The position numbers and the translations under genes were made by a program. From Candidatus Saccharimonadota bacterium (lineage in GTDB: Bacteria; Bacteroidota; Bacteroidia; Cytophagales; Amoebophilaceae), in the NCBI RefSeq assembly GCF_964030745.1, contig NZ_OZ034918.1, positions 690,001 to 722,000 on the forward strand: DNA of 32,000 nucleotides, read 5' to 3'. The notes beneath the pieces were generated by a model, which worked only from the letters and a program-made list of their open reading frames with translations, ran no database searches and had not been told where the DNA came from. Shown piece by piece: positions 24,927-25,370 of the stretch. Each line of letters begins with the position of its first letter. Position 1 is the stretch's first letter.

Positions 24927-25370
24927 AGAAAGCCAAGCTGGCTTGTCGCTTTGGTTCCCATAAAAGGTCAAAGAGGAAAGTCCGGGCAATGCAGAGCACC
25001 CTACTTCCTAACGGGAAGGCATATAGAGGTCCATCTATATGACAGAAAGTGCCACAGAAAATAAACCGCTCTCTGTAATAAGGAGGGTAAGGGTGAAAAG
25101 GTGAGGTAAGGGCTCACCGCTCTATGGGCGACCATTGAGGCAGGGTAAACCTTAGGGATTGAAAGGCCAAATAGGCATGCCTACGTTATAGCGTGACGGG
25201 CTGCTCGTTCGTCATAGGCCTCTTTGACAAGCGATTATAATCGAGTTTCGAAAGAGGTCTAAAGGTATGTGGGTGGGCCGCTAGAGGTCATAAGCGATTA
25301 TGATCCCAGATAAATGACAAGCAGTGTGCTATGGCGCACTACAGAACCCGGCTTATAGGTTTGGTTTTCT
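24927..25370 (+). ncRNA. rnpB: RNase P RNA, bacterial type A
   Basis: Conserved blocks are gaggaaagtccgggc (24972-24986), gtgccacagaaa, gggtaagggtgaaa, gggtaaacc and acagaacccggcttat (25341-25356). P1 forms between agaaagccaag (24927-24937) and tttggttttct (25360-25370). A P18-like hairpin is tcataa-gcga-ttatga. At ~444 nt it is long for type A. Confidence 0.93.
25215..25261. repeat. R1-like palindromic hairpin inside rnpB
   Basis: In taggcctctttgacaagcgattataatcgagtttcgaaagaggtcta the arms form a 10-bp stem. It shares an 18-nt exact match (agtttcgaaagaggtcta) with the R1 copy inside the LolE-like CDS. Confidence 0.7.

What the first reader, a model, noticed from the sequence alone, without database searches (positions are those of the whole stretch)
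24927..25370. RNase P RNA carries an R1-type palindromic hairpin and a local near-duplication next to P18
Seen directly: rnpB is ~444 nt, longer than the E. coli type A RNA, which I recall as about 377 nt. Between the gggctgctcg segment and the P18-like hairpin lies taggcctctttgac…tttcgaaagaggtcta (25215-25261). This is a 10-bp-stem hairpin bounded by TA on both sides. Its right arm is an exact 18-nt match to the R1 copy in the LolE-like gene (27346-27363), and its arms resemble the hairpin at 21831-21890. The flanking sequences look partly duplicated: gggctgctcgttcgtcata…aagcgattataat versus gggccgctagaggtcataagcgattatgat. Inference: a mobile palindromic element has colonised an essential ribozyme gene in a peripheral position and is presumably tolerated as an extra helix.
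Basis: partly seen in the sequence, partly recalled or inferred. Interest (0 to 1): 0.6.

Follow-up and report, generated by a model that had tools for sequence, protein, structure and literature searches.

The report
Palindromic mobile-element remnant inside RNase P RNA
The only RNase P ribozyme gene of this Cardinium insect symbiont carries a 47-base hairpin left by a small "jumping" palindromic repeat of the Rickettsia RPE-1 type. It shows how selfish DNA can add a helix to an essential RNA, but the same thing has been reported for Rickettsia.

Summary
The main observation and inference hold. rnpB (window 24930-25371, 442 nt, RF00010 264.7 bits) contains a TA-bounded 47-nt palindrome at 25215-25261. 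All 16 congeners and 2 family-level relatives lack it. The insert is the two roughly 23-nt terminal inverted repeats of a roughly 145-nt palindromic family, joined head to head. That family has at least 40 scored copies (80 candidates) in this 1.09-Mb genome. Six translated copies pass the NCBIfam RPE1 cut-off (TIGR01045), and five matching copies lie in stop-free frames of 463-1065 aa.

The insert lies in the junction between P17 and the 3' strand of P16. It is predicted to fold as a self-contained hairpin (-18.5 kcal/mol) and to leave P15, P16, P17 and P18 intact. Other Cardinium species have a native small helix at this junction. One congener (G012) has an independent 37-nt copy of the same family in loop L9.

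The "near-duplication next to P18" is not a duplication. Its left half is native P17, conserved in all congeners. Its right half is repeat-family terminal sequence. The shared 10-mer is weakly significant (about 3%).

Retention in the mature RNA could not be tested. The precedent is RPEs in the Rickettsia M1 RNA and tmRNA genes. Earlier scan notes report similar palindrome insertions in rnpB of other genomes. This is a new member of a known kind.

The parts
24930..25371 (+). rnpB, bacterial type A RNase P RNA, 442 nt. It is the only copy in the genome.
   Evidence: RF00010 scores 264.7 bits (gathering score 100) with model positions 1-367 matched. The whole genome has one match. rnpA is present with an intact frame.
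25215..25261 (+). 47-nt TA-bounded palindromic insert. It is a minimal derivative of the roughly 145-nt RPE1-like family and forms an extra hairpin in junction J17/16.
   Evidence: It is absent from all 18 relatives. It folds alone at -18.5 kcal/mol, z -4.7. No second full-length copy exists in the genome.
25215..25237 (+). Left terminal inverted repeat of the family (TAGGCCTCTTTGACAAGCGATTA).
   Evidence: It matches the left ends of family copies, for example genome 610958 TAGCCCTCTTTCGAAAGCGATT and 711831 TAGCCCTCTTTTGAC.
25238..25261 (+). Right terminal inverted repeat of the family (TAATCGAGTTTCGAAAGAGGTCTA).
   Evidence: BLAST of element positions 25-47 gives 22 of 23 identities at genome 1083497-1083519 and 989381-989403, 19 of 19 at 927683 and 952171, and 18 of 18 at window 27347-27364.
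25175..25182 (+). P16, 5' strand. It pairs with 25263-25270.
   Evidence: Covariance-model alignment, minimum-free-energy folds and RNAalifold on congeners.
25183..25194 (+). Native small hairpin inside P16 (ACGU-UAUA-GCGU).
   Evidence: Present in all congeners with compensatory changes, such as ACAC/GUGU and AGAU/AUCU.
25195..25213 (+). Native P17 hairpin. Its conserved UGCUC loop can pair with GAGC in J5/7 (P6 pseudoknot, inferred).
   Evidence: Conserved in all 16 congeners with compensatory stem changes, ACGGGC/GUUCGU versus AUAGGC/GUCUAU.
25263..25270 (+). P16, 3' strand.
25286..25305 (+). P18 with a GCGA tetraloop. All 18 relatives have GTGA. It shares the 10-mer AAGCGATTAT with the insert.
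27225..27364 (+). 140-nt copy of the same family, in frame inside the LolE-like ORF 26881-28263 (residues 116-161).
   Evidence: TIGR01045 RPE1 matches residues 116-161 at E 9.9e-5, 22.2 bits, and 26.6 bits in the six-frame search. The orthologous sites in five congeners are empty; the net gain here is 141 nt, or 47 codons.
21831..21890 (.). 60-nt shortened copy of the family, intergenic.
2990..3134 (.). 145-nt full-length copy of the family.
   Evidence: (inverted repeat I21).

Best explanation
A non-autonomous palindromic element of the RPE-1 type inserted into the single rnpB gene after this Cardinium lineage split from its closest sampled relative. The family is about 145 nt long, has terminal inverted repeats of about 23 nt that begin TAGRCCKCTTTCGAAA, and carries no transposase.

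The insertion point is the short single-stranded linker between hairpin P17 and the 3' strand of P16. What remains is 47 nt, made of the two terminal repeats joined head to head. This most likely arose by loss of the centre of a longer copy in place.

Because the element is self-complementary, the transcript folds it into its own stem-loop. That turns the P16 / inner-hairpin / P17 three-way junction into a four-way junction and leaves every native helix and the catalytic core untouched. The ribozyme therefore stays functional and the insert rides along as a neutral extra helix.

Shown: the insertion, its family membership, its position, and a predicted independent fold. Inferred: trimming in place, presence in the mature RNA, neutrality, and the mobilising enzyme, which is unknown.
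For: Insertion and position:
- The covariance model leaves the segment unaligned, and only three base pairs in the whole RNA are non-canonical.
- All 16 congeners and 2 family members have cgt-TTTT/TTCT-aag where this genome has cgt-ca[47 nt]aag. The P15-P15' arm is 115 nt here against 70 nt in the closest relatives.
- The closest relative, G010, shares 91% rnpB identity and lacks the insert.

Family membership:
- Both arms are family termini.
- At least 40 scored copies (80 candidates) occur in G000 and at least 43 scored (257 candidates) in G012. There are 14 in G013 and 11 in G003, and few or none in the other congeners.
- The terminal-repeat pattern occurs 31 times in G000 and 56 times in G012, against 0 for the reversed control.
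- TIGR01045 RPE1 gives 20 six-frame hits in the genome, six of them over the 30-bit cut-off. Five hits lie in stop-free frames of 463-1065 aa. No hit in 14 control genomes is over the cut-off.

Trimming in place:
- Other shortened symmetric copies of 24-60 nt exist and each is unique.

Fold and tolerance:
- Minimum-free-energy folds of the arm and of the whole RNA keep P15, P16, the inner hairpin, P17 and P18, and add one hairpin.
- No terminator-like site is created.
- Folds of G004, G011, G014 and the family-level relative G018 place a native hairpin at this same junction. G008, G009 and G015 also carry extra sequence there.
- G012 has an independent 37-nt copy in L9, which extends P9 to 21 bp.

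The gene is in use:
- rnpB is single-copy and rnpA is intact.
- The P1 changes specific to this genome are compensatory.

Precedent:
- RPEs occur in the Rickettsia tmRNA and M1 RNA genes (Ogata et al. 2002, as reported in PMC2229807).
Against: - No RNA data could be obtained, so presence in the mature RNA is untested.
- No target-site duplication can be proven. The flank reads 'ca' where relatives have 'tt', so the event was not a clean cut-and-paste relative to any sampled empty site.
- The LolE copy shows a net gain of 141 nt, not 138 nt, and its empty sites have no TA.
- No candidate mobilising transposase was found. There are no Y1/RAYT and no IS630 DDE_3 hits, and no long element is bounded by these repeats.
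- The 47-nt copy is too short to test against the RPE1 protein profile. Its membership rests on the terminal repeats alone.
Confidence: 0.8

Rival explanations
1. The hairpin is transcribed but then cut out, as happens with intervening sequences in 23S rRNA. The active RNase P RNA would then be in two pieces held together by P16 and P15.
For: The insert is a double-stranded RNA stem at a peripheral site. The G012 insert makes a perfect 21-bp helix, which is closer to RNase III substrate length. Earlier scan notes propose such processing for large rnpB inserts in CPR bacteria (untested here).
Against: The stem here is only about 13 bp with a bulge, plus 4 bp. From general knowledge this is short for RNase III. 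No RNA data are available.
Confidence: 0.1
2. The segment arose by local duplication of the P15'/P18 region, and not by transposition.
For: It shares a 10-mer, AAGCGATTAT, with P18. GTCATA precedes both segments. The P18 loop of this genome is GCGA, like the insert, whereas all 18 relatives have GTGA.
Against: The left 'copy' is native P17, present in all congeners. The 10-mer's core, AAGCGATT, is family subterminal sequence in other copies. A 10-nt match occurs in 3.2% of random genome windows, and with the ancestral GTGA loop the longest match anywhere falls to 8 nt. Both ends of the insert are family terminal repeats.
Confidence: 0.04
3. It is a native, lineage-specific helix (a 'P17.1') that resembles the repeat family only by chance.
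For: Other Cardinium species have a native small hairpin at the same junction.
Against: Those native hairpins are U/A-rich and 12-27 nt long, with no arm similarity. The insert matches family termini 16 of 16, 18 of 18 and 22 of 23. The closest relatives have only a 4-nt linker.
Confidence: 0.03
4. The insertion has inactivated rnpB, or the insert is an assembly artefact.
For: The covariance-model score is lower than in most congeners (264.7 against 279-293 bits). The terminal branch is longer (0.096 against a median of 0.034).
Against: rnpB is single-copy and essential, and rnpA is intact. The core P4 strands are identical to those of relatives and the stem changes are compensatory. The genome is one closed contig at 99.7% completeness. 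The score deficit is what a 45-nt unaligned insert would give.
Confidence: 0.03

Closest known systems
Rickettsia palindromic elements (RPE, especially RPE-1) inserted in the Rickettsia M1 RNA (RNase P RNA) and tmRNA genes (Ogata et al. 2002, as reported by Delihas 2007, PMC2229807)
   Same: It is a small self-complementary repeat with no transposase. It is dispersed in a reduced endosymbiont genome and sits in frame in proteins. One copy lies inside the RNase P RNA gene and is presumed neutral. The parent family here passes the NCBIfam RPE1 profile.
   Different: The host is Cardinium (Bacteroidota), not Rickettsia. The rnpB copy is a 47-nt remnant made of terminal repeats only, not a full element of about 150 nt. 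The insertion site in Rickettsia rnpB could not be compared, because the Ogata 2002 text is not held and no Rickettsia genome was reachable. No insert was found in this genome's tmRNA.
MITECca01 / MITECca02 of Cardinium cOegib (Halter et al. 2022, PMC9769881)
   Same: They are non-autonomous inverted-repeat elements that multiplied in a Cardinium genome.
   Different: Those elements are 240 nt, derive from the IS982-family ISCca4, and are reported as unique to cOegib. That paper does not mention rnpB or RNase P. The family here is about 145 nt, RPE1-like, and has no parent IS identified.
REP / REPIN elements mobilised by RAYT (Y1) transposases
   Same: They are short palindromes that form hairpins in transcripts and are occasionally intragenic.
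   Different: No Y1_Tnp or RAYT gene is present in this genome. The ends read TAG...CTA with a variable preceding base.
23S rRNA intervening sequences and palindromic inserts in rnpB of CPR bacteria and a myxobacterium (earlier scan notes)
   Same: They are extra hairpins lodged at helix tips or junctions of essential structured RNAs, derived from dispersed repeats.
   Different: Those inserts are usually much larger (60-350 nt) and are often proposed to be excised. This one is small and probably retained. None of those notes was re-tested here.

Membership tests
Bacterial RNase P RNA class A (RF00010) | Covariance-model score above the gathering score over the full model | tested here: met
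   264.7 bits against 100, with model positions 1-367 matched.
Bacterial RNase P RNA class A (RF00010) | Conserved P4 core strands and canonical pairing of the helices | tested here: met
   GAGGAAAGUCCGGGC and ACAGAACCCGGCUUA are identical to congeners. Three non-canonical pairs are flagged.
Bacterial RNase P RNA class A (RF00010) | Partner protein RnpA present | tested here: met
   PF00825 hit at 54.6 bits in an intact 141-aa frame.
RPE-1 (NCBIfam TIGR01045) - parent family of about 145 nt | Translated element matches the RPE1 profile above the curated cut-off | tested here: met
   There are 20 six-frame hits, six of them at 30 bits or more. None of the 14 control genomes has a hit over the cut-off.
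RPE-1 (NCBIfam TIGR01045) - parent family of about 145 nt | Copies inserted in frame in protein-coding genes | tested here: met
   Five hits lie in stop-free frames of 463, 748, 875, 935 and 1065 aa. The LolE-like copy adds 47 codons compared with five congeners.
RPE-1 (NCBIfam TIGR01045) - the 47-nt rnpB copy itself | Match to the RPE1 profile | not testable with these tools
   Only about 15 codons remain and the copy is non-coding. Membership rests on terminal-repeat identity to the parent family.
RPE-1 (NCBIfam TIGR01045) | Direct DNA-level homology to Rickettsia RPE-1 copies | not tested
MITE | Terminal inverted repeats, small size, many dispersed copies | tested here: met
MITE | Target-site duplication | tested here: inconclusive
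   TA at both ends could be a duplication or part of the repeat. The rnpB and LolE empty sites do not decide.
MITE | Parent autonomous IS with the same terminal repeats | tested here: not met
   Of four arm pairs 0.3-3 kb apart, none was examined for a gene. There are no DDE_3 and no Y1_Tnp hits. Other transposase families were not screened.
REP / REPIN | RAYT (Y1) transposase in the genome | tested here: not met
   PF01797 gives no hit, while 6 of 14 control genomes do.

The most novel reading that the evidence does not exclude
Self-folding RPE-type elements may be a recurrent source of new peripheral helices in RNase P RNA. On this reading, the optional helix that other Cardinium species carry at the same P17/P16 junction would be the decayed remnant of earlier insertions. 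The insert here would be retained in the active ribozyme. The unique GUGA-to-GCGA change in the nearby P18 tetraloop would reflect sequence exchange with the insert. Cardinium would then show a structured RNA gaining helices from selfish DNA, with at least two independent events in the genus and a parallel one in Rickettsia.
Probability: 0.2. Interest if true: 0.6.

Novelty: new member of a known kind. Interest (0 to 1): 0.4.

Why it matters
This is a clean, datable case of a palindromic selfish element adding a helix to an essential ribozyme. The closest relatives give the empty site. A second, independent insertion lies in another helix of a congener's rnpB. Natural helix variation occurs at the same junction. 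Together these bear on how peripheral helices and expansion segments of structured RNAs arise. They also extend the RPE-in-RNA-gene phenomenon from Rickettsia to an unrelated arthropod symbiont. On the practical side, covariance-model annotation of rnpB in repeat-rich symbionts should expect such inserts.

Tried and rejected
No RNA evidence was obtained, and no other route was tried.
I could not look for near-identical strains with an empty or filled site.
- Collection scans: the pattern scans of genome contigs (15-mer) and metagenome contigs (17-mer) returned only chance matches in unrelated organisms. None had an RNase P context.
- Ogata et al. 2002 (PMC186582) is not held. The Rickettsia precedent is cited through Delihas 2007.
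- A second alignment used a partial G000 segment and misaligned it. It was discarded in favour.
- tmRNA: the G000 gene is the longest in the genus (460 nt), but it has no family arm even at 4 mismatches.
- Target-site duplication: no direct repeat lies outside the TA. The LolE empty site gives +141 nt with no TA in relatives. This stays unresolved.
- Mobilising enzyme: there are no Y1_Tnp and no IS630-type DDE_3 hits. The four arm pairs 0.3-3 kb apart were listed but not examined for a gene.
- A promoter inside the insert was rejected. The TTGACA and TATAAT motifs on the + strand are only 6 nt apart. The scan found only minus-strand consensus matches at background frequency.

Full report
**The gene**

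Rfam's bacterial RNase P class A model matches window 24930-25371 on the + strand. The score is 264.7 bits against a gathering score of 100, and all 367 model positions are matched. Only three base pairs are flagged as non-canonical. Inside the P15-P16-P17 arm the model skips 73 nt where its consensus has 15.

The window lies at 690001-722000 of a closed 1.09-Mb genome with 39% G+C. This genome has one rnpB and an intact rnpA. Earlier scan notes name the organism as Cardinium.

**The insert is lineage-specific**

I fetched rnpB from 16 same-genus and 2 same-family genomes and aligned them. All of them read ...GGGCTGCTCGTTCGT-TTTT/TTCT-AAG(G/A)CATG... This genome reads ...GGGCTGCTCGTTCGT-ca-[TAGGCC...GGTCTA]-AAGGTATG.... 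The bracketed 47 nt are window 25215-25261.

The P15-to-P15' arm is 115 nt here and 70 nt in the closest relatives. The closest relative by rnpB identity is G010 at 91%, and it lacks the insert.

**What the insert is**

A census of the genome finds a palindromic family of about 145 nt whose ends read TAGRCCKCTTTCGAAA...TTTCGAAAGMGGYCTA.
- Twenty-six regex hits have two arms. Most are 135-146 nt.
- A 10-nt arm motif occurs 110 times against about 13 expected.
- A BLAST-type search scores at least 40 copies here, out of 80 candidates.
- The 16-nt arm pattern with up to 1 mismatch occurs 31 times, against 0 for the reversed control.

The 47-nt insert has no second full-length copy in the genome.
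- Its positions 25-47 match family right ends at 22 of 23, 19 of 19 and 18 of 18. The last of these is the copy at window 27347-27364.
- Its first 14-23 nt match family left ends.
- The interior AAGCGATT is the subterminal part of the left repeat in other copies, for example TAGCCCTCTTTCGAAAGCGATTGG.

The insert is therefore the two terminal repeats (23 + 24 nt) joined head to head. Other shortened copies of 24, 24, 32, 35, 38, 56 and 60 nt exist, and each is unique. Of these, only the 24-nt and 47-nt copies were checked for near-equal arms. I read this as loss of the palindrome centre in place, not as spread of a mini-element. That reading is an inference.

**Relation to RPE-1**

Earlier notes on this genome gave the lead, and I tested it.
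- The LolE-like ORF (26881-28263) matches NCBIfam TIGR01045 'RPE1' at residues 116-161. These residues are the 140-nt copy at 27225-27364 (E 9.9e-5).
- A six-frame search of the genome gives 20 hits, six of them above the curated 30-bit cut-off. Five hits lie in stop-free frames of 463-1065 aa. No control genome is over the cut-off.
- The LolE site is empty in five congeners. The copy adds 141 nt, or 47 codons.

The parent family thus meets the profile-based definition of RPE-1. The 47-nt rnpB remnant is too short to test in that way.

**Position and predicted effect**

The fold of the arm, the fold of the whole RNA and RNAalifold on the congeners agree on this layout:
- P15: 25165-25168 / 25276-25279.
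- P16: 25175-25182 / 25263-25270.
- A small inner hairpin: 25183-25194.
- P17: 25195-25213. Its conserved UGCUC loop can pair with GAGC in J5/7 to form the P6 pseudoknot. The P6 pairing is my inference from the sequence and from the standard type A architecture.

Both inner hairpins show compensatory changes across the genus. The insert lies in the 4-nt linker between P17 and the 3' strand of P16. It folds alone at -18.5 kcal/mol (z -4.7), as about 13 bp with one bulge plus an apical 4-bp stem. No native helix is disturbed in the predictions, and no terminator-like site is created.

Folds of G004, G011, G014 and the family-level relative G018 place a native small hairpin at this same junction. 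G008, G009 and G015 also carry extra sequence there. An extra helix at this spot is therefore naturally tolerated.

**A second, independent event**

rnpB of congener G012 carries TAGACCGCTTTCGAAAC-TTG-CTTTCGAAAGCGGTCTA (37 nt) in the loop of P9. This extends P9 to a perfect 21-bp helix at -30.1 kcal/mol. The 37-mer is unique in G012. G000 and G012 are the two genomes with the largest loads of the family. The family is confined to the subclade that contains them, apart from a single weak hit in G015.

**The 'near-duplication'**

The right segment is repeat-family sequence.

The only notable identity with P18 is the 10-mer AAGCGATTAT. Of 2000 random 395-nt genome windows, 63 (3.2%) match the element at least as well. 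If the ancestral GTGA loop is restored, the longest match anywhere in rnpB drops to 8 nt.

The P18 loop is GCGA here and GTGA in all 18 relatives. That could be chance or a short conversion. I leave it as a curiosity.

**Mechanism of mobility**

- TA bounds every copy, and no direct repeat lies outside it. The empty sites do not prove a TA duplication.
- No Y1/RAYT and no IS630-type DDE_3 gene is present. No long element with these ends was identified.
- Copies are typically 78-86% identical to the queried copy, so the family looks old and possibly no longer mobile.

**What is known**

Delihas 2007 (PMC2229807) states that RPEs are found fused in the Rickettsia tmRNA and M1 RNA genes, citing Ogata et al. 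2002, and that they may be neutral. I found no paper that links Cardinium with RPEs. The published Cardinium MITEs are a different, IS982-derived family. This scan has also noted palindromic repeats inside rnpB in other genomes, namely CPR bacteria and a myxobacterium (not re-tested).

The finding is therefore real and tidy, and it is a new member of a known kind.

**Limits**

Noticed in passing
L016:1779-1833 (-), = G012:C5:887662-887698: A congener's rnpB has an independent 37-nt palindrome of the same family in loop L9. It extends P9 to a perfect 21-bp helix, which is long enough to be a possible RNase III substrate.
   Followed up: partly
window 26881-28263 (insert at 27225-27364): The LolE-like permease gene carries an in-frame 47-codon RPE1-like insert at residues 116-161. 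The orthologous sites in five congeners are empty.
   Followed up: yes
window 25294-25297: The P18 tetraloop is GCGA in this genome and GTGA in all 18 relatives. The change creates a 10-nt identity with the nearby insert. This may be chance or a short conversion.
   Followed up: partly
rnpB of G004, G008, G009, G011, G014, G015 and G018 (L018, L002, L001, L003, L026, L009, L022): These relatives have extra sequence at the same P17/P16 junction, making their P15-P15' arms 6-21 nt longer than the 70-nt form. In G004, G011, G014 and G018 it folds as a U/A-rich hairpin. G008 reads TTTCTTTTCGAAGAAA, which is faintly like the family core CTTTCGAAAG. These could be old decayed inserts.
   Followed up: partly
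window 16576-16693 (-): A group II intron domain D1-D4 match (RF01999, 40.9 bits) lies beside the 1191-aa ORF at 16978-20553, inside a repeat-dense stretch.
   Followed up: no
window 2500-9100, 15000-16800 and 20500-20950: Dense nests of several other repeat families occur here, with direct and inverted copies of 50-250 nt at 85-95% identity. Full-length RPE1-like copies are embedded in a larger composite repeat with the flanks ggcgctctag / gtaaaacact.
   Followed up: no
genome 55843-55866 and 1004434-1004457 (outside the window): These are 24-nt palindromes, with one and three arm mismatches, made only of the outermost 12 nt of each terminal repeat. They are the smallest remnants of the family.
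   Followed up: partly
genome 368122-368581 (-) (outside the window): The tmRNA gene is the longest in the genus (460 nt against 424-456), but it has no arm of this repeat family.
   Followed up: partly
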